Assembly (NCBI GenBank): GCA_024710355.1
Contig: JANJUX010000047.1
Coordinates: 2,542 to 66,541 of the forward strand
Direction: 5' to 3'
DNA from: Candidatus Rifleibacteriota bacterium
GTDB lineage: Bacteria > Muiribacteriota > Ozemobacteria > Ozemobacterales > Ozemobacteraceae
DNA: 64,000 nucleotides
In this document: one piece after another, positions 30,290 to 59,590 of the stretch
Layout: each line of letters starts with the position of its first letter
Position numbering within the stretch: position 1 is the first letter of the stretch
Notes under the pieces: model-generated
Databases searched by the model: none
Told to the model about the DNA's origin: nothing
Seen by the model: the letters and a program-made list of their open reading frames with translations, nothing else
Program-made: the position numbers and the translations under genes

Positions 30290-30792
30290 CAGCCACCCCC
30301 ATTCCCGCTGCCGGGAAACCCGTGTAGCGGAGGTGTTTCCGGTTCAGGGCCGGGTTCGCCGGCGGTTTTCGCCCGCTCTTTCGCAGCCCGGTCTTCGGCT
30401 TCCCGCAGTTCGCGGATTCTGGCGCTGGCCGCGCGTGTTACTTCCGGTGCCTGCGGCACCAGAAAATCGACCGGCAGCTTGTGAAAATCCAGTGCAAAAG
30501 GCTGATTGGCAGAGAAAAATTCGACCGGCAGGCTGTCGAATGATGGCTTGACCTGCTTGCCCGAGGCTTTGCGGGTGTCAAGCAAGCGATCGAGCTCGTT
30601 GTCTGAGACAGCATTGACCGGCCCGGCGGTATCGACCAGGCTGCGGTCGCCGGTTCCCTCATCGGTGGTCAGCGATCTGAGAATTTCGGGGGCCCGGCGC
30701 GAGATGTAGGGAGCGGCGATCACCAGTGTGATGAAGAATGAAATGCCCATCACCTTGAGAAACAGTGCGCGCAGTTGCCGGTTATTCAGCAT
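30289..30792 (-). CDS. Single-pass membrane hypothetical protein inside the pilin cassette
   Basis: MLNNRQLRALFLKVMGISFFITLVIAAPYI; overlaps both neighbours. Confidence 0.6.
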   Translation of the reverse strand: MLNNRQLRALFLKVMGISFFITLVIAAPYISRRAPEILRSLTTDEGTGDRSLVDTAGPVNAVSDNELDRLLDTRKASGKQVKPSFDSLPVEFFSANQPFALDFHKLPVDFLVPQAPEVTRAASARIRELREAEDRAAKERAKTAGEPGPEPETPPLHGFPGSGNGGG

Positions 30793-32968
30793 AGTAGTCG
30801 ACCGCCAGCAGTGATTTGTTCTCGCCGATACTGACCCTGACCGGGTAGTCAGGAAAATACAGATTCGCGTCGTGCGAAATCTTGAGATGACCGCCTTCAG
30901 GCATTTTGCGCAGGTCAAAAAGGCTGTCGACGATCAGGTTGCCGTGAATGTCGACGCTTTTCTCTTCGAACTCGATGCCGCCTTCGGCCGACGATGAAAC
31001 TGATGAATTGTCGCTGAAACAGGTGGTGGCAGCAAGTGAGGCATAGATTTTTGCGGTGCTTTCTGTGGTTTTGATGTAGAACCGGCCGCTCATCAGATAG
31101 ATGTTGAGACGATCTTTTTTGGGGTCGAGTGGGGCCAGGCTGCCGATGTGGCAGTGGCCATCGGCGAGCACGATGCGGCCCTTGCCGCGGTAGTGATTGA
31201 CGCCGCTGAGATTCAGGATTTTGCCGCCTGAATTGATGATCAGCATGACCCCGTCGAGGTCGATGATCTTTTTGCCGTCGATGTTTTTGACGCGGTCGTT
31301 GATGAACTGATCGGGGTTCTGATACGAGTGTGAAACGGTCTGCAGGCTTTCGTCGAAAGCCGGGAACACGTCATGCCCCTCGATACCGCTTTTTACCGCC
31401 GTTGGAGTTTTTGCGGGGGTAGTACCGGCGCCGAAAAAGAAATTGTTGATCGAGAAGTGCTCGACCGGCATCGACATCAGGCGGTCGGTGCGTTTATCGA
31501 CCGGCGGGTTCAGCTGTTTGCCTGAAAAGGTTTCGACCGGATTCTCGTAGTGCATCGGCACGACCGGAAAAGGCACATCGAGCGAGTAACCGCCGTGCAG
31601 ATTGAAGGCGACGTTTACCTGGTCGACGAAGGCGATTTTGAAGAAGCGCAGATGTACCGGCCCTTCGATATAAAGCGGGATATCACGGCCTTCACCAAAG
31701 AAAAGCGGCATTTTGCCGCCCCTGACCCGTTGCGGGTTGAAGGTTTTCATTTTATCGAAATATTCGATTATGCCAGAATATGGGTGTTCATCGGTGAAAG
31801 ATTTGCCGCCGCTGCCAAAAATGCTGGTGTAGTCAGAGTAGCCGTAGTGGTATTTCCAGTTGGCCATCAGCGAGCGCACCAGCGACCTGAAGACGTCGGA
31901 AGCGGCCGGGTTGCCACCTGATTTCTGGTAGTCTTTGGCGATTACGTAGGGCAGCGAACCTTCGTTGAGGTCGCCCTTATGCGAATTTACTATCGCTTTG
32001 TAGATCGAAACCAGCTCAGGGGTTTTGTGAAAATCAGAGGCCGGGTTGAAAGATCCTGAAATGGTCGAAAAGGGAAAAGGCGGGTTAACAAAGAACAGGT
32101 TGTTGGCGCTGGCGGCAGCGTGCTGGCTGCTGACCGTCTGAAAGGCGCCCGGCTGGTAGAAGCCGCCGAGCAGGCGTTTGTCTTCTTTGAAATCGAGGTC
32201 GAGAAGCACGGGCGGGGTCGGGTCACTCCTTGCCCCCTGCGGAAACTCGGGGCAGGTCGGGTAGGATCGGTTGCCAAGGTAGGCGAATGAGTATCGGGTC
32301 GGGTCGTCCGGTGTTACGCCCTGCACGATGATGCGCTTCTGCGGGCTGTTGAGCGTTTTGCAGTAGCTTTTAACGAACAGAGCATACTTATCGACGAATG
32401 GGTCGGCAAGGTCGACGATTTTAAGCTCGCGGCGTTCTTTCACCCTGATTTCGGCAGGGCTGTCCTTGTATTTTGCCCGGCCGGTCAGTTCGATGTGGCC
32501 GACATAAGATGGTCTTGCACCGTTAATGCGCTCTGTAACGACTATATTTACCTGCCCTGACACTTCGCCGTTCTTGCCGAGATATTCGTCGACGAGCTTG
32601 TTGGCCTGTTTCAGCTGTGCTGCCGCAAAATCGGCTTTATAAACCGACTTTGCGCCACCACCCGGCTTCGATTGCCAGAAACTGCGGATGCGCGAACCAA
32701 TTGAACTGTCGGGGTCGTTTACCTGAGCTTTGACGATGGCGAGCATTTCGTTGATACCGGCCTGAGCTAGCAGAACCACGCGCTCCTGATCTATCGTTCT
32801 GTTCAATTGCAATACCGCACCGCTTTTGTGCCGGCTGAGGCCAATAATCATAATCAGCATGACCAGCGCGAAAGTGATGACGAGAAAGAGAACGAAGCCT
32901 CGGCGCTGCTTTAAAACAGCGATTCGGGCTGGCCTCTGCCCCCTATGCTCTTTCTGAGGTATGTTCAT
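30782..32968 (-). CDS. Large PilX/GspK-like prepilin protein (728 aa)
   Basis: KQRRG|FVLFLVITFAL (no Glu5); LLAQAGINE; C-terminal beta-rich GNLIVDSL region. Confidence 0.75.
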   Translation of the reverse strand: MNIPQKEHRGQRPARIAVLKQRRGFVLFLVITFALVMLIMIIGLSRHKSGAVLQLNRTIDQERVVLLAQAGINEMLAIVKAQVNDPDSSIGSRIRSFWQSKPGGGAKSVYKADFAAAQLKQANKLVDEYLGKNGEVSGQVNIVVTERINGARPSYVGHIELTGRAKYKDSPAEIRVKERRELKIVDLADPFVDKYALFVKSYCKTLNSPQKRIIVQGVTPDDPTRYSFAYLGNRSYPTCPEFPQGARSDPTPPVLLDLDFKEDKRLLGGFYQPGAFQTVSSQHAAASANNLFFVNPPFPFSTISGSFNPASDFHKTPELVSIYKAIVNSHKGDLNEGSLPYVIAKDYQKSGGNPAASDVFRSLVRSLMANWKYHYGYSDYTSIFGSGGKSFTDEHPYSGIIEYFDKMKTFNPQRVRGGKMPLFFGEGRDIPLYIEGPVHLRFFKIAFVDQVNVAFNLHGGYSLDVPFPVVPMHYENPVETFSGKQLNPPVDKRTDRLMSMPVEHFSINNFFFGAGTTPAKTPTAVKSGIEGHDVFPAFDESLQTVSHSYQNPDQFINDRVKNIDGKKIIDLDGVMLIINSGGKILNLSGVNHYRGKGRIVLADGHCHIGSLAPLDPKKDRLNIYLMSGRFYIKTTESTAKIYASLAATTCFSDNSSVSSSAEGGIEFEEKSVDIHGNLIVDSLFDLRKMPEGGHLKISHDANLYFPDYPVRVSIGENKSLLAVDYYAE

Positions 32969-33103
32969 TCTCAGTTTTTGATTCCCGTAAAATTTTAGCC
33001 GGTTCTACGACCCCGGGTCCGGGTTTTCATGAACTCGACTATTTTGCAGTCATCGATCAAGATAACATTAAACCTTTGCCGGTGTCATTGCCCACGAACA
33101 GTT

Positions 33104-33163
33104 TCGCCCCGCACAACGCCATTTTGCGGCAGAAGCACGCAAAATGATGTTGCCACGGGGCGA
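33104..33163. other. Long imperfect hairpin between the secreted helical gene and the pilin cassette
   Basis: TCGCCCCG...CAAC..CATTTTGCG / CGCAAAATG..GTTG...CGGGGCGA arms. Confidence 0.6.
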
Positions 33164-33184
33164 GACTCTGGCTCTTAAAGAGGG

Positions 33185-34252
33185 TTAATCCCAGTTGAGG
33201 CCGGGCTGTGATTTGGCAGCCGGCAGCGGCGCGCTGTCGATTATTTCGTTGGTTGTATTGGCGGCTTCTGATTTGACCGGTTTGAAAATTTCACTGACGC
33301 CTCTTTTGATAATGGCTTTGGCGGCAGCATTGTTAGCCGAATTCGAAACAAGATTGCCGGCGCTGTCGACAATCATATCGTCAGCGGCGCCAACCAGGTT
33401 GTCTGCCATACCACCGGCAATGTTGCCGAGGCCTTTTGAGACCACGCGGTTGAGGGCTTCCTGGGCGGCGGCTTTGGTTGCCTCTTTGCCGGCTACAGCA
33501 AGGAACTGCTTGTCGTCAGTGATTGCCTTGTCGGCTGCGGTATTGAGAGTGTTGCCGGCTGCTTTGAGAATTGCAGCAGCAATACCGGTTGCGGTCGCGG
33601 CTTTGCCGGTGATTGCGGCGATCGGGCCGGCAATGGGAGCGGCGGGCGGAAAGGCGCAGATGGCGGTGCAGAGAAGACCGACGCTGCCCAGAACCATCGA
33701 TGCCGTTGACAGAGCGTTGGCTGCGTCAAGCAGAGCCTTGCCGGCTTCTTTGAGGGCTTTCTGGTAGATACCGAGGGCGCTGGCGTTTTCGTCGAGACTT
33801 TCATAGACTTTGGTCGGATCAGTGCTGGCCGCCTCTTTGAAAGACCCCTGCTTGAGCAGTTCCATGGTCTTTTTGGCGTCTTCCTGGATTTTTTTGATAT
33901 CTGCGTTGGCTTTTTCGATCTTCGGAACGTAGCGTTCGAGTTCCTGTTTTTCTTTCAGGGCTTTCTCTTCTTCTTCACTGCGGTCTTTGCCACCGAGCCA
34001 GGTCGGGCGGTTGGCCCAGGCATTCTTGATGTCATTGATGCGATTCAGGGTCCATTCAGAGATCTTGCCGAGCTCGATCGGTTTGATCGCCATGATTTCG
34101 TCATAGGTCTTCTGATAATCAGCTACCGCCTTTTCGATCTGTGCCTTCTGATTCTTGGCTTCCTGGGCGGCAACGATTGCCGGCGACATCAGCTGCACAA
34201 AAAACGTAAGCAGAACGAGCAATGCAACAAGTTTACGCGAGTACCTGTTCAT
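33185..34252 (-). CDS. Secreted helical protein with central hydrophobic hairpin
   Basis: Sec signal; coiled-coil N-half; uncharged Ala/Gly-rich run SMVLGSVGLLCTAICAFPPAAPIAGPIAAITG. Confidence 0.75.
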   Translation of the reverse strand: MNRYSRKLVALLVLLTFFVQLMSPAIVAAQEAKNQKAQIEKAVADYQKTYDEIMAIKPIELGKISEWTLNRINDIKNAWANRPTWLGGKDRSEEEEKALKEKQELERYVPKIEKANADIKKIQEDAKKTMELLKQGSFKEAASTDPTKVYESLDENASALGIYQKALKEAGKALLDAANALSTASMVLGSVGLLCTAICAFPPAAPIAGPIAAITGKAATATGIAAAILKAAGNTLNTAADKAITDDKQFLAVAGKEATKAAAQEALNRVVSKGLGNIAGGMADNLVGAADDMIVDSAGNLVSNSANNAAAKAIIKRGVSEIFKPVKSEAANTTNEIIDSAPLPAAKSQPGLNWD

Positions 34253-34390
34253 ATTGACCTCCGAGTATTTTATTCTACTTCTAACTATACCTCAAAAAAT
34301 TCTGAAAGTTTTGGGCCGCAGAAAAAAAGTGTACAGAAAATTAAACTCGCCGCCGGAAATAGTGAATTCTTGCTGCCATTGTGTTACTGT

Positions 34391-35254: not shown

Positions 35255-35312
35255 AAAGCGATGGCGATTGCGTTATGCTGACAGAAAATAACAAGCGAAA
35301 GGTTCAAAGATT

Positions 35313-37583: not shown

Positions 37584-38480
37584 ATGAGCAGATTTGATTA
37601 TACCGCCGCCACCAGGCGCGAACTGGTCAGTCTTATTCGCAGCAATAAACTTTTCTGCTGTCAGCAGTCTTTCCTCGTCGGTCTGCTGCATGGCTCGCGC
37701 CTGACTCCATTCGCCCGTGCCCGCAAAAACCTGCGCCGGCGCCTGGCGAACTGCCTTCAGTCCATTCTCCCCGACAGTCAGAAAATTATCTGCCGGGGTG
37801 CCAGAATATGGTTGCCCGGTCTCGATCAGCTGTTTCTGCGCGAGAAATTTGTCGATCGCATGCGCATCGTTTCAGGGGCAAGTCGGGTAAGCCATTGTCA
37901 CGTGGCTTTTCTTCAGGGTCTCTTTGTCGCACATGGCTACATTCAGAGCCCGAGTCGCGGTTATCATCTCGAATTCCGTCTGCAGGGAAGCTGGCTGGCC
38001 GCGGCTTTCAGAAAAGTCGCTGCCGGTCTGCGCCTCAAATTCTGCTTCTATCAGCACGAACAATACAAAAGTTTTTACCTCAAAAGCGGCAGGCGCATTG
38101 CCAGGCTGCTGAACCTGCTGGGACTGTTCGAACGTGGGCTTGAATTTTCTGACCTTCTGGCAACGCGAAACCTGCTTTCACAGGTAAACCGCCAGGTCAA
38201 TTCAGAAACTGCCAATATCAACCGTCTGATCAATGCTGCTGAGTCTTCAATTGCTCACATTCGCGAACTGCTGACCTGGGAAGACCAGGAAATCTGGACG
38301 GAAAGCCTGCATCAGATGGCGCAGATGCGTCTCAGATACCCACACGACAGCATTGAAAGCCTCGGAAAAAGATTTGAGCCGCCCCTGACCAAATCAGCGG
38401 TCAACCATCGTCTGCGGCGCATTAAAGCGCTGCATGCCAAAATTTTCAGCCAGACAGTCGATCGCTCTCAGCCTTCGTGA
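37584..38480 (+). CDS. whiA: DNA-binding protein WhiA
   Basis: CCQQSFL, YHLEF, YLKSG, VNRQVNSETANI, C-terminal HTH LTKSAVNHRLRRI. Confidence 0.9.
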   Translation: MSRFDYTAATRRELVSLIRSNKLFCCQQSFLVGLLHGSRLTPFARARKNLRRRLANCLQSILPDSQKIICRGARIWLPGLDQLFLREKFVDRMRIVSGASRVSHCHVAFLQGLFVAHGYIQSPSRGYHLEFRLQGSWLAAAFRKVAAGLRLKFCFYQHEQYKSFYLKSGRRIARLLNLLGLFERGLEFSDLLATRNLLSQVNRQVNSETANINRLINAAESSIAHIRELLTWEDQEIWTESLHQMAQMRLRYPHDSIESLGKRFEPPLTKSAVNHRLRRIKALHAKIFSQTVDRSQPS

Positions 38481-40651
38481 ATTTTGCGGGAATAAAGCAG
38501 CAGAGCGGCAAAATTCAGCGACAGTATCAGACACAGCAGAGCGAAACAGTTCTGCATGCCAAAGGCCGGCAGCAGCCAGAGACCACTGAGAGTTCCGACC
38601 AGCATTGCGCCGGCGCTGTCAGAAAACAGCAGCAATCCGGCTGAATCGTGGGCCTGCCGACCGCTGCCCCGCAGTATGCTGTCGGCAACCGGAAACTCGA
38701 TGCCGTCGAGAAAAGCGATGAGAAAGACCATTGCCCCAACAACCGCTGCCGAGTGCAGGTTGTAGCGTTCGACGAACAATATGCCCAGACCGGTAAAAAC
38801 AATCTGCAGCAGCTTAACGTGCTTGAGCCTTCTGATGGCTTCTGGGCGGTGCTGCAGCCGGCCAAAGGTCATCGAACCAGTTGCCAGGCCAAGCATGTAG
38901 AGCCCGAAAAACAGCGCGGTCATCTGGTATGCAGCGCCATGGCGGTTTTGATAGAGCAAAATGAGAATTATTTCAGACAGCAAACCGGTTGCGCCGCTGG
39001 CGGCGACCCCGGCGGCAATGATACTGCGTGAAGCCAGAACCGGGCTGGCGACCAGCGGCAGCAACATCAAAAACAGGCCGAAACCTGTGCAGATGGCGAA
39101 CAGGTGGGTGCGGGATGTGTGTTGCAGAACGTGCAGCATACGGTTCAGTGAAGTGCCGCTGTAGATGTTCCAGAGTTCGAGCTGTTGCATGAAAGTACCG
39201 GGGCGGGCGTCGGTATTGAGATCGACTTTTACATCTTTCGCCAGCCATTGTTCGAGTTCTTTGACGCGAAAGGGCATCAGCAGATTATAAAAGCTCATCG
39301 GCATAAAGGTGGTCGTCTGAATGCCACGCCCGGCAAACCTCGTGGCCAGAACTTTGACATCAGTTGTGACCGGTGCCGGTGAGGCAAAAAAGGTAATGTT
39401 GCTGCCCGGAAAAGCGACGCAGTGAGCGAATTGCGCTTTCAGGGCCTGCCAGGTCGACAGCATAATTTTTTCTTTGATGTTGCCGAGGTAATTTTCGCTA
39501 CCCTCGACCTGCAGAGAAAGAACCCCGGTCGGCTTGAGCCGGCCCTGCATTGCCTTGAAGGCTTCGACGGTGAAAAGTCGGTTGCCTACAAGCGTTACCG
39601 GCGAGACCGGGCAGATCATGATACCGTCGAAAACCTCGTTTTCGTGGTTGAGGTACTGGCGTGGGTCAGTGATGATTATTCTGATCAACTGCCGCAGCTG
39701 ACTGTCGTAACCGAGCAGGTCGAAAAGTCTGCCGTCAGGCTCTACAACAGTAAGCCTCAGGTTCTGATATTTGAGAAATTCCCTGACGGTTTCAGCTGAT
39801 GGTGCACCAATGAGCAGAATATTGCCGGTTTCTGACAGAACTGTCGCAAAAGTGTGCACTCTGGCTTCGCTGCTTTCAGGGTTTGGCCATGAATCTGCGA
39901 GCATGCCATTTGAAAAGAGGCTTTTTTGCTCATGATAACCGGCAATCTGCAGCTTCTGATACGGTGTTTCTACAGTCTTTTCAAGGGTCAGCAACCCTTG
40001 CATGCGCTGCCACCAGGAGTTTTCGATTTTATGAGAAACCGATGGCCCAAAATGCCAGACTAGAGGCGCCAGCGTCAGAGTCAGCAGAGCTGGCAGCAAT
40101 TTTTTCCGGCTGATCAGTGTCTCTGCCGCGATTGGCAAGAGCGGCAGAGCAAGCAGGCAGAGAATCGAATCGGCGGTGCCGCCAAGCAGCAGCGAGAAAA
40201 AGACACCACCGGCAAAGCCACCAATCGCCTCAAGACTGTAAAAGTAGCCGAGGCTTTTATGCGAAAGTCTTATCAGACAAGGAATCAACATGCCGATCAG
40301 CAGAGAAACCGGGGTGACAGATGCAAGCATGAACAGAGCAACCGGCGCAAATGGCAGAAAACCGCCCTCCGGCGCCGGAACCATGTCGACACCATAGTAC
40401 AGTGCGCCAACTGACATGAGAGGCAGAACAAACAGTGCGGCGAGAAGCAGCCTCGGACTGATGCTGATTTTACCGCCAATGAAGCCGCCAATGGCGATTC
40501 CGAGCAGCCAGATACTCAAAAACAGCCCGAGATGAATTTCAGTGCCATAAAACTGGCCCATGAAAAACCTGAACAGGGCAACCTGGGCAATATTGGCGGT
40601 AAATCCGGTAAAAGCTGCAATCAGAGAAAGTTTATGAAGATGATGCAGCAT
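38468..40651 (-). CDS. Membrane-bound spermidine-synthase-like protein (fused MFS/SAM-dependent domain)
   Basis: About 7 N-terminal TM helices, ETPYQKLQI, central methyltransferase-like domain (DPRQYL, FTVEAF..M...L.P.G), NTDARP, further C-terminal TMs. Confidence 0.78.
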   Translation of the reverse strand: MLHHLHKLSLIAAFTGFTANIAQVALFRFFMGQFYGTEIHLGLFLSIWLLGIAIGGFIGGKISISPRLLLAALFVLPLMSVGALYYGVDMVPAPEGGFLPFAPVALFMLASVTPVSLLIGMLIPCLIRLSHKSLGYFYSLEAIGGFAGGVFFSLLLGGTADSILCLLALPLLPIAAETLISRKKLLPALLTLTLAPLVWHFGPSVSHKIENSWWQRMQGLLTLEKTVETPYQKLQIAGYHEQKSLFSNGMLADSWPNPESSEARVHTFATVLSETGNILLIGAPSAETVREFLKYQNLRLTVVEPDGRLFDLLGYDSQLRQLIRIIITDPRQYLNHENEVFDGIMICPVSPVTLVGNRLFTVEAFKAMQGRLKPTGVLSLQVEGSENYLGNIKEKIMLSTWQALKAQFAHCVAFPGSNITFFASPAPVTTDVKVLATRFAGRGIQTTTFMPMSFYNLLMPFRVKELEQWLAKDVKVDLNTDARPGTFMQQLELWNIYSGTSLNRMLHVLQHTSRTHLFAICTGFGLFLMLLPLVASPVLASRSIIAAGVAASGATGLLSEIILILLYQNRHGAAYQMTALFFGLYMLGLATGSMTFGRLQHRPEAIRRLKHVKLLQIVFTGLGILFVERYNLHSAAVVGAMVFLIAFLDGIEFPVADSILRGSGRQAHDSAGLLLFSDSAGAMLVGTLSGLWLLPAFGMQNCFALLCLILSLNFAALLLYSRKIHEG

Positions 40652-52728: not shown

Positions 52729-52842
52729 GGCCTTAACCATTGTCCTTATAACCGGCGAAAACCGGGCTCACAAATCTAATGAATGCGTCAGGCGCGAGCC
52801 TTTAACAGGGCCGCGCCTTCTATTTTGAAAGGGGTCTCAGGC

Positions 52843-55611
52843 ATGTTTGGATGGCTTTATAAGCTGGTCAGATTCTTCATTCCAGATTTCAACGCACGGG
52901 AACTGGCCCGACTACAGGAAACCCTCGAAGAAGTCAACGTTCTTGAGGATTCATTTAAAAAGCTTTCGAACGAAGAACTTGCCGGTATGACCCTGAAGTT
53001 CCGCCAGCGACTTTATGATGGCGAATCGGTTGACAATATCAAAGCCGAAGCTTTTGCCACCGTAAGAGAAGCCTCGCGCCGCATACTCAATATGCGTCAT
53101 TACGACGTGCAGATCCTCGGCGGCCTGTCTCTCAACGAAGGGCGCATCGTCGAAATGAAGACCGGCGAAGGTAAAACCCTCGTCGCCACTCTGCCGCTAT
53201 ATCTCAATGCCCTCGAACTGAACCCCGTCTGGCTCGATCTCGCCAAAAAGAAGGGTCAGAAAACTTTCGAACCAATCGTCGATGCCAACGGTATTCCGGT
53301 GCCGGTTGGCCGGGGCGCTCTGCTCGTCACCGTCAACGATTACCTGGCCCGCCGCGACTCTGAATGGATGGGCAAAGTCTATCGTTTTCTCGGCCTCAGC
53401 GTCGGCCTGAACATTCATGGTCTGAATGCCGAACAGAAGCGCGCCGCCTACGCCTCAGACATCACCTACGGCACCAACAACGAATTCGGTTTTGACTATC
53501 TGCGCGACAATATGGCACTGACTCTTGCCGACTGCGTGCAGAGACCCGAATACAACTTCGCCATCGTCGACGAAGTCGACTCGATTCTTATCGATGAGGC
53601 GCGAACGCCGCTGATCATTTCGGGCCCGGCCGAAAAAGCTACACAGCTGTATTTTATCTATGCCAAAGTGGCCCGCGAAATTCTCAAACCCGACGAAGAC
53701 TATATCGTTGACGAAAAGCATCACGGCGTTTCGGTTACCGAAGCTGGTATCGCCAGGGTCGAAAAGGCTCTTGGCATCGAAAATCTTTATGACAACAGCA
53801 ACATGGACCACGTGCATCAGCTGCAGAACGCTCTGAAAGCGAAGCATTTCTTCCATCGCGATAAAGAATACATTGTCAGGCCGCGCGAAGACGGTCGTGG
53901 CCAGGAAGTCGTCATCGTCGACGAATTCACCGGCCGCCTGATGTTCGGTCGCCGCTATTCGGATGGTCTGCACCAGGCTATCGAAGCTAAAGAAGGCGTT
54001 CCGATACAACAGGAAAACCAGACTCTCGCTTCGATCACCTTTCAGAACTACTTCAGGCTTTATCGCAAACTCGCCGGCATGACCGGTACTGCTGAAACTG
54101 AAGCAAAAGAATTTAAAGAAATCTACAAGTGCGAAGTCGTGGTCATTCCGCCCAACAAGCCCTGCATAAGAATTGACCAGGCCGATGTCATCTACAAGAC
54201 GGTCCAGGAAAAATTCGAAGCGATCGTCGATAACATCATCGAGATTCATAACCGCAAACAGCCGGTTCTCGTGGGCACCATCTCGATCGAAAAAAGTGAA
54301 CTGATCGCGGCGATGCTGCGCAAACGCGGCATTACCTGCCAGGTTCTCAACGCCAAATACCACGAAAAAGAAGCCGAAATCGTCGCTCAGGCCGGTAGAG
54401 AAGGCGCCATCACCATCGCCACCAACATGGCTGGCCGCGGTACCGACATTCTTCTCGGCGGTAACCCCGAAATGCTTGCCAAGCGCGAAGTTGACGATAT
54501 CGAGAGTGCCGAATACAAAGAGGCGCTGGCCAAATACCGCAACCAGTGCGAAGATGAGAAAAAGCGCGTTATCGAAGCCGGTGGCCTGTTTATTCTCGGT
54601 ACCGAACGTCATGAATCGCGCCGTATCGACAACCAGCTGCGCGGTCGTGCCGGCCGCCAGGGCGACCCGGGCGCCAGCCAGTTCTATCTGTCGCTTGAAG
54701 ATGATCTGATGCGCCTGTTCGGCTCGGTTAACATCGCCGGCTGGATGGAAAAACTCGGCTGGGAACGCGGCGAACCGATCGAACACCCCTGGATCTCGCG
54801 CTCGATCGAAAGCGCCCAGCGCAAGGTTGAAGCCTACCATTTCGACGTGCGCAAGCATATTCTCAAATACGATGACGTCATGAACCAGCAGCGCACCGTG
54901 GTTTACAATGAACGCCGCAAAGCCCTCGAACAGGAAAGGGTTTATGACGATCTGCTGTCGATGATCAGCGAAGTCATCGAAGGCGCCGTCGGTGCCACTC
55001 TTTCTCCTGAAATCGACCCGGACGACATCGATTACAATGCACTGGCTGACCAGATCAGGAAGGTTTTTCCGATCGAATGCGAGGGCGGCGACCCGAAAAA
55101 CGGCAAGCCCGGCCAGCTCTGCACCTATTCACGTGACGAACTGGTTGATGAACTGAAGCGCCGCGCCATGGAAAGACTCAACGCCAAACGCGCCGAACTC
55201 GGCGATGACGACTTCTTCTCGATGCAGAAGTTCCTGCTGCTGCAGATCGTCGATGCCAAATGGAAAGACCACCTGCACAACATGGACAACCTGCAGGACG
55301 GCATTCACCTGCGCAGCTGGGGCCAGCGCGATCCGCTGGTTGAATACAAGATCGAAGGTTTCCAGATGTTTCAGAACATGATCGAAAGCATCAAGGAAGA
55401 CCTGCTGTATTACCTCTACCGCGTTTCTTACTCGCGCAACGAAGAACAGGAAGCCCAGAAAGAACAGGAAGAGGAAGTCTATTACAACCGCGGCGACGGC
55501 GATGCTCCCCCGAAACAGCCTGCCCATGCCGAAGATACCACCAACCGCAACGAGCCCTGCCCGTGCGGCAGTGGCAAGAAATACAAGAAGTGCTGCGGCC
55601 GAACCAGCTGA
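52843..55611 (+). CDS. secA: Preprotein translocase subunit SecA
   Basis: EMKTGEGKTL, TVNDYLARRD, YGTNNEFGFDYLRDN, VDEVDS, GTERHESRRID, C-terminal RNEPCPCGSGKKYKKCCG. Confidence 0.97.
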   Translation: MFGWLYKLVRFFIPDFNARELARLQETLEEVNVLEDSFKKLSNEELAGMTLKFRQRLYDGESVDNIKAEAFATVREASRRILNMRHYDVQILGGLSLNEGRIVEMKTGEGKTLVATLPLYLNALELNPVWLDLAKKKGQKTFEPIVDANGIPVPVGRGALLVTVNDYLARRDSEWMGKVYRFLGLSVGLNIHGLNAEQKRAAYASDITYGTNNEFGFDYLRDNMALTLADCVQRPEYNFAIVDEVDSILIDEARTPLIISGPAEKATQLYFIYAKVAREILKPDEDYIVDEKHHGVSVTEAGIARVEKALGIENLYDNSNMDHVHQLQNALKAKHFFHRDKEYIVRPREDGRGQEVVIVDEFTGRLMFGRRYSDGLHQAIEAKEGVPIQQENQTLASITFQNYFRLYRKLAGMTGTAETEAKEFKEIYKCEVVVIPPNKPCIRIDQADVIYKTVQEKFEAIVDNIIEIHNRKQPVLVGTISIEKSELIAAMLRKRGITCQVLNAKYHEKEAEIVAQAGREGAITIATNMAGRGTDILLGGNPEMLAKREVDDIESAEYKEALAKYRNQCEDEKKRVIEAGGLFILGTERHESRRIDNQLRGRAGRQGDPGASQFYLSLEDDLMRLFGSVNIAGWMEKLGWERGEPIEHPWISRSIESAQRKVEAYHFDVRKHILKYDDVMNQQRTVVYNERRKALEQERVYDDLLSMISEVIEGAVGATLSPEIDPDDIDYNALADQIRKVFPIECEGGDPKNGKPGQLCTYSRDELVDELKRRAMERLNAKRAELGDDDFFSMQKFLLLQIVDAKWKDHLHNMDNLQDGIHLRSWGQRDPLVEYKIEGFQMFQNMIESIKEDLLYYLYRVSYSRNEEQEAQKEQEEEVYYNRGDGDAPPKQPAHAEDTTNRNEPCPCGSGKKYKKCCGRTS

Positions 55612-55683
55612 CAGGGCTGAATTCCTGCGGCAGCTGCCTTAAACCGGGCTTTTCCTGATCAGCTTTTTCAAGCCGGAGAAATT

Positions 55684-56160
55684 ATGTTGGCAATCAGAAA
55701 CAGACAGGCTGCGGTTTCGCTTGTTGAGGTGCTGATTGCCCTCGCCATTCTTTCGACGCTGGCTTTGCCGATGCTGATGTTTCTTGTCGAATATTCGCGC
55801 GGCAGTTCGCAGCTCGGCGACTATTACCAGATTCTCAACATTGTCGAAGAAAAGCTCGATACGGCGCTGGCAATGAACTTCGTCGATCTTCCGACCGGTG
55901 AAACCGACGGCAAACTGGTCGAGGCCGAAAATTCGCGGCCGCTCGATCTGCGCCCGGCTCAGGTCGGGCACGAGATTGTCAAATTCAGAATGCGTGCCGA
56001 GATGGTGACGGTTGAGTTCGCGGCGATGAAAGACGCCACTTCCGGGCAGCTGCAGCGCGCCCGTGTCGAAGACGGCATGAAGCGCATCGAGATTACCGCT
56101 GAATGGGGCGACAAGAAAAAGCACAACATCAGCCTCATCGCTTACAAGGCCAACCTATGA
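55684..56160 (+). CDS. Prepilin-like protein (PilV/GspI-like)
   Basis: RQAA|VSLVEVLIALAIL; GMKRIEITAEW; LIAYKANL. Confidence 0.8.
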   Translation: MLAIRNRQAAVSLVEVLIALAILSTLALPMLMFLVEYSRGSSQLGDYYQILNIVEEKLDTALAMNFVDLPTGETDGKLVEAENSRPLDLRPAQVGHEIVKFRMRAEMVTVEFAAMKDATSGQLQRARVEDGMKRIEITAEWGDKKKHNISLIAYKANL

Positions 56161-56675
56161 CGCCAGCCACGCTGACAATTCAAAGTCAAGATTCCCATAT
56201 CTCTCGGTTCCTGAGCTTGCCGAAGGGCCGTCACGGTATCGCGATGCCGATTATCTTCGGGCTGGTTCTCTGTCTGGCAATCTGGGTGGCTTCGCTTTCC
56301 TGGACGATGACCAACAGTCGGGCGCGTTACCAGCAGGTATTGAAGGCCCGCAAAGCTTACTTTATGGCCCGCTCAGGCATGCAGCACCTTTTCCTGAAGC
56401 TCAAAACCATGCAGCGGCACTGCATCGAGGCCATGCAGTCGATCGAAAATGCCAATGATGACGAAAAAAAACTTCTTTATTCTGTCTTTATTGAGGATAT
56501 AATTGTACCACCCGATGATAGTTACACTGGCGAAAAGTATGAATATCGGGTAAATGAATTCAAGGTCGAGTCGATCGACCATGAAGAGTCGAAACTTACT
56601 CTGCAGGTCGGGGTTGAAGGCAGCTTCGGCGGGCAGAAGAACAGTATCAGCAGACTGATTCGCATAAGTCGATAG
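56157..56675 (+). CDS. Small PilX/GspK-like prepilin protein
   Basis: GRHG|IAMPIIFGLVLCL; KAYFMARSGMQH; ATGA-coupled to the previous gene. Confidence 0.72.
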   Translation: MTPATLTIQSQDSHISRFLSLPKGRHGIAMPIIFGLVLCLAIWVASLSWTMTNSRARYQQVLKARKAYFMARSGMQHLFLKLKTMQRHCIEAMQSIENANDDEKKLLYSVFIEDIIVPPDDSYTGEKYEYRVNEFKVESIDHEESKLTLQVGVEGSFGGQKNSISRLIRISR

Positions 56676-56700
56676 TCTGAACATTTCAGGAGGCATAACC

Positions 56701-57829
56701 GTGGAATACGAAGTCGTCGAAAAAATTCGAACGATGAAAACCCGGCTCTCCGGCATCGGGAGCCATCTTTGACCTGCCCAACAAAAGGCGGCAGATTGAA
56801 GAGCTTGAGTCAGCGACATTAAACCCCAATTTCTGGAACGACCGCAACAAGGCCCTGGCCACGAGCCAGAAGATCGCCGAACTCAAAAAGGCGTGCGATG
56901 CCTATGAGGCTGTCAATAAAGAATTTACAGACACAGTAGACCTGCTGGAGCTTGCCGAAGCCGAAAACGACGACGGCATGTTTTCTCAGCTGCTGAATCA
57001 GCTTGACCCGATTAACAGAACGATCGACAACCTTGAGCTGACCACCTTTCTCTCTGAACCATACGATGCTTCCGATGCCTATCTTTCGATCAAGCCCGGT
57101 GCCGGTGGCACCGAGTCGTCAGACTGGGCCTCGATGCTGCTGCGTATGTACCAGCGCTATCTCGATGCTTCCGATCTCAAATACGAGATTCTCGACCTCC
57201 AGGAAGAAGAACAGGGCATCAAGTCTGCAACGCTGCGCATTAAAGGCCAGTATGCCTACGGCTATCTGAAGGGCGAAAAGGGAGTGCACCGCCTGGTGCG
57301 CATTTCGCCGTTCGATTCGAACGCCCGCCGCCATACCAGCTTTACCGCGGTCGACGTCATGCCGATTCTGCCTGATGATGTCGACGTCGAAATCAAAGAA
57401 GACGACCTCAAGCTCGACTTCTTCAGAAGCTCGGGCGCCGGTGGCCAGCACGTTAACAAAACGAGCAGTGCCGTGCGCATCACGCATCTGCCGACCGGTA
57501 TCGTGGTTGCCTGTCAGATCGAGCGCAGTCAGCACCAGAACCGCGAAGTCGCTCTCGGCATGCTGAAAGCCAAGCTCTACGAACTGCAGCAGCAGGAAAA
57601 AAAGAAGGAACTGAAGAACATTTCGGGCGATATGAAAAATATTTCCTGGGGCAATCAGATCAGGTCCTACGTTTTCTGCCCTTATACTCTGGTCAAAGAC
57701 CTGCGCACCGGTCAGTCTACTTCCGATGTCCGCAAGGTCATGGATGGAGACCTTGAGCCCTTTATCAAGGCCTATCTTAACTGGCATGCCAACGGTGAAA
57801 AACCGTTGAATGTTGCCGACGCTGAATAA
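56701..57829 (+). CDS. prfB: Peptide chain release factor 2 with programmed +1 frameshift (join 56701-56769, 56771-57829)
   Basis: AGGAGG RBS, GTG start, 23 codons ending CTT-TGA-C, then the +1 frame continues into SPF, GGQ and WGNQIRSYV motifs. Confidence 0.95.
56758..56773 (+). other. RF2 +1 ribosomal frameshift site
   Basis: GGGAGC-CAT-CTT-TGA-C: internal SD-like element plus slippery CTT-TGA. Confidence 0.9.
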
Positions 57830-57841
57830 TGAGGTAAATCG

Positions 57842-59590
57842 ATGCCCGATGTAAGGAACCTGCTGACGCGCTGCCGCCGTGGCAGTGCCATATTCATGCT
57901 GCTGACGATTGTCGGCGTTCTTTACATTTTCGGCACGATGCTGATCAACTACATGACGCAGGAACGGGCGCAGACAGCCCGGCTCGGCGAGAGCATGCAG
58001 GCCTTCTACCTGGCAGAATCTGCGGTTGAAAAGGGCATGATCAAGATGCGCGAGCTTTTTTCGCAGAAACTGCTGACTGATGGCGGTGAAATCAACGATA
58101 AGATTCTCGCCCTGCTCGATATCGACAGGGCCGAGAACTTTTCGCTGCGCATCAAGATCAACGACGGCGAACTGATCACAGGCGGCAGCGCCGAAGTGCT
58201 CGTCGAAGTCAACAATCTGCGTCTTACCCCTTTCAAGACCTACATTGACGAATACGAGGAGGTGCCCGCGGCTCTCAAGGTCTACCGCAAAGAAAACCGC
58301 GACACCTATGCCGACAAGGCACTCGGCGGCTGGGAAGGCCTGCTGCGTTTCGAAGCCACCGGTCGTTACCGCAATGCCGAAAAGAAAATCGAGGTTATCC
58401 GCGAACTGAAGGTTACTGACCTGACGCCGCCGGCCGAGAACTACACTTTGTTTGTCTCGAACCGCAAGGATGAATATCTGCGCCACGGTGAGTTCAGATG
58501 CCGTAACTGGAGCGTTGTGCGCGAACTGAAGGCGCTGATAGATGATCTGGCTAAAAAGACCCGCGACGCTTTCCAGGAAACCCTCGGCAACACTGCCGGC
58601 GACTTCTTCTGGGAACCGAACATGGCCAGCAACGTCGGCTTTGAGGGCGATATGAAGATTCGCACCCTCAAGGTTATCCGCAAGCTGGTAATGTCGGTTT
58701 CTGACATCAAGATCAAGGATTTCGTCGACATTTCGATTCAGAAACTGCACCCCTATCTCTGGGGCAAGATTCGCACCAACGGCCGTCTGCACGTCTATCT
58801 GCCGTTTTTTGCCGCCGACGATATCATCAACTATTTCGAAGACAACTCGATCTTTTCGCATCAGCGCCCGGAAATCGGCTACCTGTTCTGCAGCAATCAG
58901 CTGCACGACCCGTATCTGAGCAAATATACCTATTATGAAGGCGAAATAATCAGGTATTATCAGAAGCTGAAGCCCTACGTGCTCGGCATTACCGAGACGC
59001 CGTACCCGAGTTCAGATCCTTACACGATGAATACCAAGTTCGACTTCGTTTCGCGCCACCCCGACAAGCTCGAACCAATGCAGCTCGACCGCATCAAGAA
59101 AGATGCGAAAGACTACTGCCACGAATTCATCGAACGCGATCTGACGCTGCAGGGCACCTATTCAAAGCCTGCATCGGTGTGGGGCCTGGTTTACGTTCAG
59201 GGCAACGTTTACATTGGCGGCCGTATCTCCGGGCAGGGCATGATCGTCACCGATGGCGACATTTTCATCACCGAGAACGTCGTGCACGACAGCGCCGCTT
59301 CTTTCCTGTCGCTCGTTTCGCTCAAAGGCACGGTGCGTCTTGCCAAGGGTCTGAACAATGCCAAGATCGAATCGGCGATCTACGCCAAAGAAAGTCTGCT
59401 CGGCGGTGAAGAAGTCAATATCTTCGGCAACCTCGTCGTCGATTCTCTCAACCGCCAGAAGGGCGAAGACGGCCCGCTGATCATGCCCAAGCGTGTGGTC
59501 ATCAACTACGATTCGAATCTGAAGGCTGAGGTCGGCAGCAACGTCTGCTTCAACATCTCTGATTTGATTACGACCCAGCGCGATCTTTAA
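57842..59590 (+). CDS. Large PilX/GspK-like prepilin protein (582 aa)
   Basis: CRRG|SAIFMLLTIVGV; QAFYLAESAVE; C-terminal beta-rich GNLVVDSL region. Confidence 0.75.
   Translation: MPDVRNLLTRCRRGSAIFMLLTIVGVLYIFGTMLINYMTQERAQTARLGESMQAFYLAESAVEKGMIKMRELFSQKLLTDGGEINDKILALLDIDRAENFSLRIKINDGELITGGSAEVLVEVNNLRLTPFKTYIDEYEEVPAALKVYRKENRDTYADKALGGWEGLLRFEATGRYRNAEKKIEVIRELKVTDLTPPAENYTLFVSNRKDEYLRHGEFRCRNWSVVRELKALIDDLAKKTRDAFQETLGNTAGDFFWEPNMASNVGFEGDMKIRTLKVIRKLVMSVSDIKIKDFVDISIQKLHPYLWGKIRTNGRLHVYLPFFAADDIINYFEDNSIFSHQRPEIGYLFCSNQLHDPYLSKYTYYEGEIIRYYQKLKPYVLGITETPYPSSDPYTMNTKFDFVSRHPDKLEPMQLDRIKKDAKDYCHEFIERDLTLQGTYSKPASVWGLVYVQGNVYIGGRISGQGMIVTDGDIFITENVVHDSAASFLSLVSLKGTVRLAKGLNNAKIESAIYAKESLLGGEEVNIFGNLVVDSLNRQKGEDGPLIMPKRVVINYDSNLKAEVGSNVCFNISDLITTQRDL

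What the first reader, a model, noticed from the sequence alone, without database searches (positions are those of the whole stretch)
30782..59590. Two giant PilX-like paralogues share a core and a C-terminal beta-rich module but differ in the middle
The 728-aa (30782-32968) and 582-aa (57842-59590) proteins share RRELKIVDLADPFVDKYALFV / IRELKVTDLTPPAENYTLFV after the pilin helix, and VDIHGNLIVDSL...ISHDANL / VNIFGNLVVDSL...INYDSNL at the end. The intervening 300-400 aa look unrelated by eye. They are much longer than typical PilX. Inference: a conserved scaffold carrying a variable adhesin or ligand-binding insert, acting as a built-in tip adhesin in place of PilY1.
Basis: partly seen in the sequence, partly recalled or inferred. 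Interest (0 to 1): 0.65.

Follow-up and report, generated by a model that had tools for sequence, protein, structure and literature searches.

The report
Giant cap-type minor pilin paralogues
Two very large, unannotated proteins of an uncultured Rifleibacteriota bacterium are true distant paralogues that look like oversized "cap" subunits of type IV pilus or type II secretion filaments, a design already known from Thermus ComZ and cyanobacterial PilX, and their differing middles are strongly conserved rather than variable.

Summary
The 728-aa protein A (30782-32968, minus strand) and the 582-aa protein B (57842-59590, plus strand) share an N-terminal ~200 aa module (profile-profile E=1e-15) and a C-terminal ~120 aa beta-rich module (E=4e-20). 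The 250-390 aa between them are not detectably related. The one exception is a borderline ~50-aa core.

Both start with [RK][RK]-Gly followed by a hydrophobic helix without Glu5, the signature of GspK/PilX-class cap pilins. Both sit beside small Glu5-bearing pseudopilins resembling GspI, GspJ or HpsC. They belong to a superfamily of about 750 clusters, mostly Rifleibacteriota, with at least three classes of middle region on the same N...C scaffold.

The "hypervariable adhesin insert" idea fails. Within each orthologue family the middle is as conserved as the ends or more so, and B's central motif is nearly invariant even in Wallbacteria. The "built-in tip plug instead of PilY1" idea is plausible but untested, and has published precedent in ComZ and cyanobacterial PilX.

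Neither protein matches any Pfam or NCBIfam model. A's confident AlphaFold model (pLDDT 85) has no significant PDB match. B is locked into a secA-pseudopilin-prfB-B gene order across the phylum. Verdict: a new variant of a known kind, of moderate interest.

The parts
30782..32968 (-). Gene A: 728-aa giant PilX/GspK-class minor-pilin-like protein
   Evidence: ORF. 65 orthologues at 27-95% identity covering about 97% of its length, all Riflebacteria/Ozemobacteraceae where named. AF2 model with pLDDT 85.2 and pTM 0.79.
32357..32968 (-). A N-module (aa 1-204): RRG leader, hydrophobic helix without Glu5, long alpha-1 helix (19-83), then four long beta-strands
   Evidence: hhalign N-N E=1.1e-15. Gly24 in 95% of family members; the +5 residue is L/V/I/F, never Glu. 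Secondary structure.
31199..32356 (-). A middle (aa 205-590): family-specific mixed alpha/beta region, not detectably related to B's middle
   Evidence: hhalign M-M E=0.19, no better than column shuffles. Conserved among A orthologues at the same level as the ends.
31631..31774 (-). A central core (aa 399-446): best-conserved segment of the A family; borderline match to the B core
   Evidence: Mean identity 54% against 41-45% in the other segments. hhalign against B327-377: E=0.0055-0.076, z=1.8-2.6. The A-core HMM also hits some 'other-middle' relatives at a collinear position.
30785..31198 (-). A C-module (aa 591-728): beta-rich module shared with B, ending in a 15-residue strand (710-724)
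   Evidence: hhalign C-C E=3.6e-20. Runs of short strands in the AF2 model with pLDDT above 90.
57842..59590 (+). Gene B: 582-aa giant PilX/GspK-class minor-pilin-like protein, conserved across the phylum
   Evidence: ORF. 152 hits, mostly at 60-100% identity. Found in 60 species-representative genomes. Covered by metatranscriptome contigs.
57842..58468 (+). B N-module (aa 1-209): RRG-SA leader and hydrophobic helix without Glu5, then an alpha-1 helix plus beta-sheet
   Evidence: Family consensus matches PilX_N PF14341 over positions 1-51 of 51, E=5.5e-4, 20.3 bits, below the cut-off. Gly14 in 92% of members; the +5 residue is M/L/V/I. AF2 pLDDT 80-92.
58469..59221 (+). B middle (aa 210-460): family-specific region, poorly modelled but the most conserved part of the B family
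   Evidence: pLDDT below 50 for residues 286-407. Identity 0.83-0.94 in residues 281-400.
58820..58972 (+). B central core (aa 327-377): ...DIINYFEDNSIFSHQRPEIGYLFCSNQLHDPYLSKYTYYEGEI..., near-invariant
   Evidence: Mean identity 75% against 53-57% elsewhere, and still 51-67% in Wallbacteria-type orthologues. The motifs Y[LM]PFFAAD (its last two residues, D326-D327, border this core) and [FQ]S[HY][QH]RPEIG (inside it) recovered all 60 genome loci.
59222..59587 (+). B C-module (aa 461-582): beta-rich module shared with A
   Evidence: hhalign C-C E=3.6e-20. AF2 pLDDT 83-95. Non-significant Foldseek hits to ComZ, ice-binding proteins and bactofilin.
29088..29759 (-). 223-aa pseudopilin (G|FTLVE), GspJ/HpsC-like, last gene of the A operon
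   Evidence: Pfam N_methyl E=2.4e-6. NCBIfam HpsC 2.2e-5 and GspJ 1.2e-4, both sub-threshold. Gene order is kept in a 34%-identical orthologue locus.
29759..30289 (-). 176-aa pseudopilin-like protein (A|FSFVE)
   Evidence: Weak N_methyl and ComGE hits. Synteny kept.
30289..30792 (-). About 167-aa single-pass membrane protein that overlaps the 3' end of A by 11 nt (stop codon included). The start at 30792 is inferred.
   Evidence: ORF. An equivalent 126-aa gene overlaps the giant gene in L002 and L003. An RNA-derived contig spans the junction.
33185..34252 (-). 355-aa conserved upstream neighbour of A: N-terminal hydrophobic segment, charged Lys/Glu-rich stretch, Ala/Gly-rich C-terminus; function unknown
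   Evidence: ORF. A 400-aa gene holds the same position in L002. No family hit.
55684..56160 (+). 158-aa GspI/ComGE-like pseudopilin with Glu5, first gene of the B cluster
   Evidence: Pfam N_methyl 1.7e-6. NCBIfam GspI 6.7e-4. Synteny kept across Rifleibacteriota.
56157..56675 (+). 172-aa small pilin-like protein without Glu5. The start at 56157 is inferred from an ATGA overlap.
   Evidence: The B N-module HMM hits it at E=1.2e-4. NCBIfam GspK N-terminus 0.097. Homologous to the 292-aa protein at 40653-41531. Syntenic.
56702..57829 (+). prfB (release factor 2) with a +1 frameshift site, lying between the pseudopilin genes and B and ending 12 nt before B
   Evidence: CTT TGA C at 56767-56773. 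GAGG ribosome-binding site and the ATG of B. The order pseudopilin-small pilin-prfB-B is kept in 41 of the 44 Rifleibacteriota loci that have upstream sequence.

Best explanation
A and B are distant paralogues of one superfamily of oversized, Glu5-less cap-type minor (pseudo)pilins, the GspK/PilX class, in a Rifleibacteriota bacterium.

Proposed mechanism. Only the N-terminal sequence features and the gene neighbourhood are shown; cleavage, the pilin fold, assembly, tip location and function are all inferred.
- The N-terminal [RK][RK]-Gly leader is cut by a prepilin peptidase.
- The hydrophobic alpha-1 helix and the pilin-like alpha/beta domain dock onto the small Glu5-bearing pseudopilins encoded beside each gene (176 and 223 aa for A; 158 and 172 aa for B).
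- Together they form a GspI/J/K-like priming complex that seeds and caps a type IV filament.
- Lacking Glu5 and carrying about 400-500 extra residues, the giant subunit can only sit at the tip.
- The N- and C-modules form the conserved scaffold. The family-specific middle, with its highly conserved ~50-aa core, is the functional head that plugs the tip and binds a fixed partner or substrate.

Different giant caps (A-type, B-type and at least one further type) would equip different filaments or tip complexes in one cell, as described for ComZ and for the cyanobacterial PilX subfamilies.
For: - Homology of the N- and C-modules: E=1e-15 and 4e-20, z about 40.
- N-terminus: Gly at -1 in 92-95% of members, preceded by basic residues and followed by about 20 hydrophobic residues; position +5 is never Glu.
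- The B consensus aligns over the full PilX_N model, though below threshold. One orthologue is named 'PilX N-terminal domain-containing' by NCBI.
- The AF2 models show a 58-65-residue alpha-1 helix followed by four long beta-strands, then the extra domains.
- Neighbouring N_methyl pseudopilins resemble GspI, GspJ or HpsC.
- The layout 'giant gene plus small ORFs, at least one scoring as N_methyl' recurs in a 34%-identical A orthologue, in the third class P0276 and in two further relatives, one with a T2SS-type ATPase gene about 8 kb away.
- No PilY1/PilC domain gene is listed in any of these related loci, and neither window protein nor its neighbours hit that domain.
- RNA-derived contigs cover both loci and span the prfB-B and A-downstream junctions.
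- Precedent: ComZ, a GspK-like pilin domain carrying a large inserted beta-solenoid, argued to sit at the tip (PMC6561018), and cyanobacterial PilX with a bulky solenoid proposed to replace the PilY1 plug.
- ComZ and two ice-binding proteins are among B's best Foldseek hits, although none is significant.
Against: - Neither window protein reaches any Pfam or NCBIfam pilin model.
- Foldseek does not recover GspK, PilX or any other pilin for the confident A model (best E=0.83). The pilin fold is therefore inferred from the order of secondary-structure elements only.
- No filament machinery (ATPase, platform protein, secretin, prepilin peptidase) lies in the window.
- B is separated from its pseudopilin partners by prfB and embedded among housekeeping genes. 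The Wallbacteria orthologue locus shows no obvious pseudopilin by eye (no family scan was run) and none of the window's cluster genes by tblastn. This sits oddly with a dedicated pilus operon.
- Cleavage, filament incorporation and tip location are all untested.
Confidence: 0.55

Rival explanations
1. They are caps of a periplasmic type II secretion-type pseudopilus rather than external tip adhesins. The bulky head would contact the secretin or the secreted substrates, and B would belong to a core secretion apparatus co-expressed with SecA.
For: - The neighbours score best against T2SS-type models: GspI, GspJ and the GspK N-terminus, plus the polysaccharide-secretion pseudopilin HpsC.
- B is phylum-wide and much more conserved than A.
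- B is locked in the order secA-pseudopilin-small pilin-prfB-B and lies next to tatC in Wallbacteria.
- Its near-invariant core suggests a fixed internal partner.
Against: - All T2SS model hits are far below their cut-offs.
- No secretin or GspE/F genes are in the window.
- A 580-730-aa cap is much larger than GspK.
- T2SS and type IV pilus minor pilin sets cannot be told apart from these data.
Confidence: 0.2
2. They are not filament subunits. They are bitopic envelope proteins held in the cytoplasmic membrane by an uncleaved signal-anchor helix, with a large periplasmic or extracytoplasmic domain that has a housekeeping role such as envelope biogenesis or secretion quality control. On this view the pilin-like N-terminus is a relic.
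For: - No significant pilin model or fold hit.
- B sits in a housekeeping context beside secA and prfB, or beside tatC.
- B's central motif is extremely conserved and has many invariant polar residues (R311, N313, D326, D327, H355, D356, E366). That would suit a catalytic or metal-binding site.
Against: - The near-invariant Gly preceded by two basic residues, at the exact position of a prepilin cleavage site, is conserved across very divergent families.
- The genes are consistently linked with Glu5-bearing pseudopilins in several independent families.
Confidence: 0.15
3. One reading: a conserved scaffold carrying a variable, diversifying adhesin or ligand-binding insert.
For: The middles differ between paralogue classes while the N- and C-modules persist.
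Against: Within each orthologue family the middle is not variable. It is uniform in A and is the best-conserved part of B. B's middle motifs persist at 34-37% overall identity across phyla. No sign of hypervariability was seen.
Confidence: 0.07
4. The shared motifs are chance matches between unrelated proteins.
For: The pairwise BLASTP E-values are only 0.002-0.003.
Against: Profile-profile E-values are 1e-15 and 4e-20, about 40 SD above shuffled controls. The matches are collinear, and the proteins share architecture and gene context.
Confidence: 0.01

Closest known systems
ComZ of Thermus thermophilus (PDB 6QVI), a competence pilus tip pilin
   Same: A large protein (about 500 aa or more) with an N-terminal hydrophobic helix and a GspK-like pilin domain carrying a big beta-rich extra domain. 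It is encoded next to a small minor pilin that it binds, and was argued on steric grounds to sit only at the filament tip. ComZ ranks second among B's Foldseek hits.
   Different: No sequence similarity: profile searches of the PDB find nothing. The Foldseek match is not significant for B (E=0.086, TM about 0.25), and ComZ is not among the 50 best hits listed for A. ComZ's extra domain is one ~380-aa triangular solenoid, whereas A has a mixed alpha/beta middle followed by a short beta-rich C-module. DNA binding was not examined here.
Cyanobacterial PilX homologues (PilX_Com, and PilX_EPS, the subfamily homologous to HpsA), bioRxiv 10.64898/2026.02.12.705559
   Same: Glu5-less PilX-class caps enlarged by a bulky inserted domain. 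Several subfamilies occur per genome, each paired with its own small minor pilins, and they are proposed to replace the PilY1 tip plug. The 223-aa neighbour of A scores best against the HpsC pseudopilin model.
   Different: A and B hit no NCBIfam model at E<=1. A different phylum is involved. The insert is not shown to be a solenoid. B's embedding between secA and prfB, and its invariant central motif, are not features described for these proteins in the passages read.
GspK (T2SS) and PilX (type IVa pilus) cap minor pilins
   Same: Basic-Gly leader, hydrophobic alpha-1 helix lacking Glu5, and genes encoded with GspI/GspJ-like (PilV/PilW-like) partners. GspK also carries an extra domain inserted into the pilin fold.
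   Different: From established knowledge, GspK is about 325 aa and Pseudomonas PilX about 195 aa, against 582-728 aa here. The model scores are below threshold. The extra mass here is 2-4 times larger and of unknown fold.
PilY1/PilC tip adhesins
   Same: The same proposed role: a bulky element at the pilus tip acting as plug or adhesin.
   Different: From established knowledge, PilY1 is a non-pilin protein with a C-terminal beta-propeller (PF05567). A and B have a pilin-type N-terminus and no hit to that domain. The comparison is one of function only.
Large or modular minor pilins: CofB/TcpB of type IVb pili, and PilB/PilC of Streptococcus sanguinis
   Same: A pilin module fused to bulky functional modules. 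The type IVb proteins act as assembly initiators and tip components (mentioned, and from established knowledge).
   Different: Those modules are recognisable (vWA, lectin, beta-sandwich) and are appended C-terminally. No such domains are detected in A or B.

Membership tests
GspK/PilX-class cap minor (pseudo)pilins | Class III signal-like N-terminus: basic residues, Gly at -1, then about 20 hydrophobic residues | tested here: met
   A family: R/K 89%, R/K 68%, G 95% (otherwise A), then F-V/I-L-F/Y-L/V/I-V... B family: R/K 71%, R 64%, G 92%, then S-A-L/M-F-M/L-L....
GspK/PilX-class cap minor (pseudo)pilins | Absence of Glu at mature position 5 | tested here: met
   Position +5 is L/V/I/F in the A family and M/L/V/I in the B family, never Glu. 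The neighbouring small pseudopilins do carry Glu5 (FTLVE, FSFVE, VSLVE).
GspK/PilX-class cap minor (pseudo)pilins | Significant match to the PilX_N (PF14341) or GspK (NF037980) models | tested here: not met
   Neither window protein hits anything at E<=1. One of 44 family members hits PilX_N, at E=0.011. The B consensus scores 20.3 bits against a 25.5-bit cut-off; the A consensus has no hit.
GspK/PilX-class cap minor (pseudo)pilins | Type IV pilin fold: a long alpha-1 helix packed on a four-stranded antiparallel sheet | tested here: inconclusive
   The AF2 secondary-structure order fits: A has H19-83 then strands 107-114, 134-148, 154-167 and 170-186; B has H16-73 then strands 101-106, 115-133, 161-176 and 179-193. 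Foldseek returns no pilin for A, and only ComZ at E=0.086 for B.
GspK/PilX-class cap minor (pseudo)pilins | Encoded with GspI/GspJ-like (PilV/PilW-like) partner minor pilins | tested here: met
   N_methyl pseudopilins lie next to A, and next to B with prfB in between. The arrangement is conserved in distant orthologues and in other classes of the superfamily.
GspK/PilX-class cap minor (pseudo)pilins | Processing by a prepilin peptidase and location at the filament tip | not testable with these tools
   This needs biochemistry or imaging.
ComZ / cyanobacterial PilX (tip pilins carrying a solenoid) | A large beta-solenoid inserted between the penultimate and the last beta-strand of the pilin fold | tested here: inconclusive
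   In A, about 500 residues separate the fourth sheet strand (170-186) from a final 15-residue strand (710-724), which is compatible with an insertion topology. The C-modules show runs of short strands. Foldseek hits to ComZ (E=0.086), LeIBP (E=0.99), FfIBP (E=1.3) and bactofilin (E=0.32), all for B, are not significant; for A only bactofilin is listed, at E=5.0, and ComZ and the ice-binding proteins are not among its 50 best hits. Hydrophobic periodicity is unclear.
ComZ / cyanobacterial PilX (tip pilins carrying a solenoid) | Sequence homology to ComZ or to HpsA/PilX models | tested here: not met
   Profile searches of PDB sequences, which include 6QVI, find nothing. No NCBIfam hit at E<=1.
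PilY1/PilC tip adhesins | C-terminal PilY1/PilC beta-propeller domain (PF05567) and a non-pilin N-terminus | tested here: not met
   No Pfam hit. The N-terminus is pilin-type.
Bactofilin (PF04519), the name given to one partial B orthologue | Significant match to the bactofilin beta-helix model; a cytoplasmic polymer-forming protein | tested here: not met
   E=0.25 for one of 44 members. E=0.41 for the B C-module consensus. Foldseek against 6RIA gives E=0.32 for B and 5.0 for A. The N-terminal membrane helix also argues against a cytoplasmic polymer.

The most novel reading that the evidence does not exclude
B, and perhaps the whole superfamily, may not be a pilus adhesin at all. It could be the cap or working head of a phylum-wide, housekeeping type IV filament-derived machine that is co-transcribed with prfB and sits just downstream of secA. 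Its near-invariant central motif (...YLPFFAADDIINYFEDNSIFSHQRPEIGYLF..HDPY...YEGE...) would form a catalytic, metal-binding or partner-binding site of a fold not yet represented in the PDB.
Probability: 0.2. Interest if true: 0.65.

Novelty: new variant of a known kind. Interest (0 to 1): 0.42.

Why it matters
If these proteins are cap pilins, candidate phyla such as Rifleibacteriota and Wallbacteria carry several unannotated families of giant tip subunits with no Pfam or NCBIfam model. One of them has a confidently predicted structure (pLDDT 85) with no significant match in the PDB.

This would extend the emerging idea, based on ComZ and cyanobacterial PilX, that many bacteria lacking PilY1 build the tip plug or receptor into the PilX-class pilin itself, and that exchanging the head on a fixed scaffold specialises filaments.

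The B family is the more intriguing one:
- It is single-copy and conserved across the phylum.
- It is fixed between prfB and the secA-proximal pseudopilin genes.
- Its central motif is almost invariant across phyla, which points to a conserved molecular partner or activity worth identifying.

In practical terms, the results give clear domain boundaries and motifs for building family models and for annotating hundreds of 'hypothetical proteins'.

Tried and rejected
- Pfam and NCBIfam scans of A, B and 44 family members gave nothing at threshold. There were only faint hits to PilX_N, the FapA solenoid and bactofilin.
- PDB sequence-profile searches with both families found nothing relevant.
- Foldseek of both AF2 models against the PDB, and of A against BFVD, gave no hit at E<=0.001.
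- Several tests for hidden homology of the middles were run: segment hhalign, local and global modes with column-shuffle nulls, enlarged profiles, and core HMMs searched across families. Only a borderline ~50-aa core emerged. I therefore do not claim full-length homology of the middles, and I also reject 'completely unrelated'.
- The 727-aa ORF at 38468-40651 is not a third paralogue. It is a polytopic membrane protein with a weak spermidine-synthase-like hit and is not hit by any module HMM.
- Hydrophobic autocorrelation of the C-modules showed no clear solenoid period.
- The genome-collection scan with the merged alignment failed because it had no sufficiently conserved stretch. The B-family alignment was used instead.
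- Literature searches on Riflebacteria, Ozemobacter and pili found nothing about these proteins.
- 'Variable adhesin insert' is rejected on per-segment conservation.
- Bactofilin membership is rejected: the NCBI name on one partial orthologue is not supported.

Full report
**1. What is in the sequence**

The two ORFs are exactly as described. A lies at 30782-32968 on the minus strand (728 aa). B lies at 57842-59590 on the plus strand (582 aa).

Pairwise BLASTP gives only two weak, collinear matches:
- A14-201 against B4-207: 20% identity, E=0.002.
- A595-703 against B464-560: 30% identity, E=0.003.

Neither protein hits any Pfam or NCBIfam model, even at E<=1.

Both have many orthologues, all labelled Candidatus Riflebacteria, Ozemobacteraceae or Rifleibacterium where a name exists.
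- A has 65 clusters at 95% down to 27% identity, each covering about 97% of its length.
- B has 152 clusters, mostly at 60-100% identity.
- B evolves roughly half as fast as A in the same metagenome-assembled genomes (MAGs). In PHD82, A is 78% identical and B 91%. In KKB51 the figures are 67% and 83%.

**2. Is the similarity real, and how far does it extend?**

Profile-profile comparison of the two orthologue alignments gives 95.5% probability and E=1.4e-8. The three segments were then tested separately:

| Segments compared | First profiles (41 and 36 sequences) | Enlarged profiles (108 A-type, 57 B-type) |
|---|---|---|
| N-N (A1-204 / B1-209) | E=1.4e-8 | E=1.1e-15, about 40 SD above column-shuffled controls |
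| C-C (A591-728 / B461-582) | E=7.9e-12 | E=3.6e-20, about 40 SD above column-shuffled controls |
| M-M (A205-590 / B210-460) | E=0.19, no better than column shuffles | best match E=0.076, see below |

The enlarged B set includes Wallbacteria-type sequences.

With the enlarged profiles the best middle match becomes a collinear ~47-column stretch, A399-446 against B327-377. It scores E=0.076 over the whole middle and 0.0055 in a narrow test, with z=1.8-2.6, and 1-2 of 40 shuffles score as well. MAFFT aligns the same stretch in the merged alignment: PF..I..YF....QR..G...LF....Y.EG.

I treat this as a borderline remnant, not as proof.

**3. The middle is not variable**

Per-window identity to the window protein is flat across the A family, at 0.42-0.63. 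In the B family residues 281-400 are the most conserved part, at 0.83-0.94.

Split into five segments, the ~50-aa central core is the best-conserved segment of both families:
- A: 54% against 41-45% in the other segments.
- B: 75% against 53-57%.

In a scan of species-representative genomes, all 60 B orthologues were recovered through two motifs from the middle, Y[LM]PFFAAD and [FQ]S[HY][QH]RPEIG. These include twelve at only 34-37% overall identity, three of them labelled Ca. Wallbacteria, UBP17 or Cloacimonadota. This contradicts a hypervariable or diversifying insert.

**4. The wider family**

An exhaustive HMM search with the merged profile finds 748 clusters (at 50% identity) with E<=1e-3, of which 162 have E<=1e-10. 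I dissected the best 145 with separate N, middle and C HMMs:
- 41 long proteins have the N-module, an A-type middle and the C-module.
- 17 have the N-module, a B-type middle and the C-module.
- 31 long proteins (524-947 aa) have N- and C-modules but neither middle.

The 'other' proteins form at least one large group of about 750-950 aa and several small ones. A sample of ten has no Pfam domain.

One of them, P0276, comes from the Rifleibacteriota MAG ADurb.Bin157, which also carries a B orthologue. A single cell therefore carries several classes. 'Conserved N...C scaffold with exchangeable middle' is true between paralogue classes.

**5. Why I read them as cap-type minor pilins**

Shown directly:
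- **N-terminus.** Both families begin with [RK][RK]-Gly (Gly in 92-95%, otherwise Ala), followed by about 20 hydrophobic residues. The residue at +5 is never Glu. This is the signature of GspK/PilX-class subunits. The cyanobacterial preprint states that lack of Glu5 in PilX caps the filament.
- **Model match.** The B consensus N-terminus aligns over the entire PilX_N model at 20.3 bits, below the 25.5-bit cut-off. NCBI names one orthologue 'PilX N-terminal domain-containing'.
- **A's neighbours.** A is followed by a ~167-aa single-pass protein, a 176-aa pseudopilin (A|FSFVE) and a 223-aa pseudopilin (G|FTLVE). The last gives N_methyl E=2.4e-6, with best sub-threshold hits to HpsC and GspJ.
- **B's neighbours.** B is preceded by a 158-aa GspI/ComGE-like pseudopilin and a 172-aa protein without Glu5.
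- **Recurrence.** The layout 'giant gene followed by small pilin-like genes' recurs in a 34%-identical A orthologue, in the third class P0276 and in other relatives, one with a T2SS-type ATPase gene nearby.

Inferred:
- **Pilin fold.** AF2 gives a long alpha-1 helix and then four long strands in both proteins. The A model has pLDDT 85.2 and pTM 0.79. In the B model the N- and C-modules are confident and the middle is below 50. Foldseek gives no significant pilin hit: for A the best E is 0.83, and for B ComZ ranks second at E=0.086.
- **Tip location.** This follows from the missing Glu5 and the bulk of the protein, by analogy with GspK and ComZ.

**6. The C-terminal module**

The models show runs of 3-6-residue strands (A560-700, B428-533), compatible with a small beta-solenoid. 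For B, Foldseek lists ComZ, two ice-binding proteins (LeIBP 3UYV and FfIBP 8X1L, the fold class closest to ComZ's solenoid), bactofilin and a left-handed beta-helix protein. All are non-significant, with E between 0.09 and 1.4. For A the only such hit is bactofilin at E=5.0.

Pfam bactofilin and FapA hits are faint, at E of 0.03 or worse. Hydrophobic periodicity is unclear. 'Beta-rich' is shown; 'beta-helix' is not.

A ends with a 15-residue strand (710-724), as long as the strands of the N-terminal sheet. This could be the last pilin strand returning after an insertion, as in ComZ.

If that is so, the N- and C-modules would form one structural unit, which would explain why they are conserved together. 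This is an inference.

**7. Context and expression of B**

prfB (56702-57829) carries the classic CTT TGA C +1 frameshift site at 56767-56773. It ends 12 nt before the ATG of B, which is preceded by GAGG.

In 48 Rifleibacteriota species representatives, the order hpf-ptsN-secA-pseudopilin-small pilin-prfB-B is kept wherever enough upstream sequence exists. The exceptions are L031 and L041, where no prfB lies upstream, and L053, which has a 4.6-kb insertion. The distant group lacks this linkage. In one Wallbacteria locus B is followed by tatC.

Contigs assembled from metatranscriptomes span the small pilin-prfB junction (56490-57869) and run from inside prfB through the whole of B (57435-59800). 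The A locus is covered more patchily, with a contig across the junction between A and its downstream gene.

These contigs carry no strand information and may include DNA. They are consistent with co-transcription but do not prove it. The organism occurs in wastewater, sludge, wetland and microbial fuel cell metagenomes.

**8. Comparison with what is known**

The closest known systems, by function, are:
- ComZ, a GspK-like pilin domain with a large inserted solenoid, acting as a tip DNA receptor (PMC6561018).
- The cyanobacterial PilX subfamilies, with a bulky solenoid proposed to replace the PilY1 plug, and distinct priming complexes for distinct filaments (bioRxiv 10.64898/2026.02.12.705559).

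Membership in those families is not established. There is no sequence homology to ComZ or to any NCBIfam model, and no significant structural match.

Membership in the GspK/PilX class rests on the N-terminal signature and the gene context, not on model scores.

PilY1 and bactofilin membership are both rejected.

**9. Verdict**

The most likely account, at about 0.55, is a family of giant Glu5-less cap pilins that form tip or priming complexes with their neighbouring pseudopilins, each class carrying a conserved, class-specific head.

The main alternatives are a periplasmic T2SS-type pseudopilus cap (0.2) and a non-filament bitopic envelope protein (0.15). For B, the housekeeping context and the invariant polar core keep these two open.

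Novelty: a new variant of a known kind. Interest is moderate.

Noticed in passing
window 56702-57829, site at 56767-56773: prfB (release factor 2) carries the classic programmed +1 frameshift site CTT TGA C. The gene is wedged between pilin-like genes and B, and this arrangement is conserved across Rifleibacteriota.
   Followed up: partly
window 40653-42468 (minus strand) and 38468-40651 (minus strand): A third pilin-like pair: a 314-aa Glu5 pseudopilin (N_methyl E=5e-5) plus a 292-aa protein without Glu5 whose N-terminus is homologous to the 172-aa protein of the B cluster (E=3e-10). It is followed directly by a 727-aa polytopic membrane protein with a weak spermidine-synthase-like hit. No giant cap is present in this cluster.
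   Followed up: partly
window 16776-22232 (minus strand): An 1818-aa protein whose only detected domain is a von Willebrand factor A domain (aa 319-480), followed by a 330-aa ORF with no family hit. It is not next to any pilin gene. Whether it is a PilY1-like or other adhesin was not examined.
   Followed up: no
loci L018, L019, L037, L052; protein P0105: B orthologues at 70-87% identity occur in MAGs labelled Candidatus Methylomirabilis, Erysipelotrichia, Candidatus Avigastranaerophilus and Clostridiales. The four loci also show the full Rifleibacteriota secA-prfB-B synteny. These contigs or bins are probably mis-binned or mislabelled.
   Followed up: partly
locus L056, 5977-8780: In a Candidatus Wallbacteria genome the B orthologue (619 aa) is followed immediately by an ORF that looks like tatC by eye. 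No pseudopilin is obvious by eye among the flanking ORFs (no family scan was run), and tblastn finds no secA, prfB or window-type pseudopilin within about 6 kb. The central motif is almost identical to that of the window protein despite 35% overall identity.
   Followed up: partly
window 60414-61041 (minus strand), 27062-27684 (minus strand) and 28028-28297 (plus strand): Small ORF pairs that look, by eye only, like toxin-antitoxin modules. One is a 122-aa protein with a 93-aa partner that overlaps its start. The other is a 111-aa protein with a 152-aa HTH-like protein. No tool was run on them.
   Followed up: no
window 32580-32947: The 5' ~370 nt of gene A have no coverage at 95% identity or above in any of the four metatranscriptome assemblies, although the rest of the gene is covered. 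This may reflect strain divergence at the 5' end or low coverage.
   Followed up: no
window 57119-58906 (minus strand) and 53455-54858 (minus strand): Long antisense ORFs of 595 and 467 aa lie opposite prfB/B and secA. They are shadow ORFs of the conserved sense genes, not genes.
   Followed up: no
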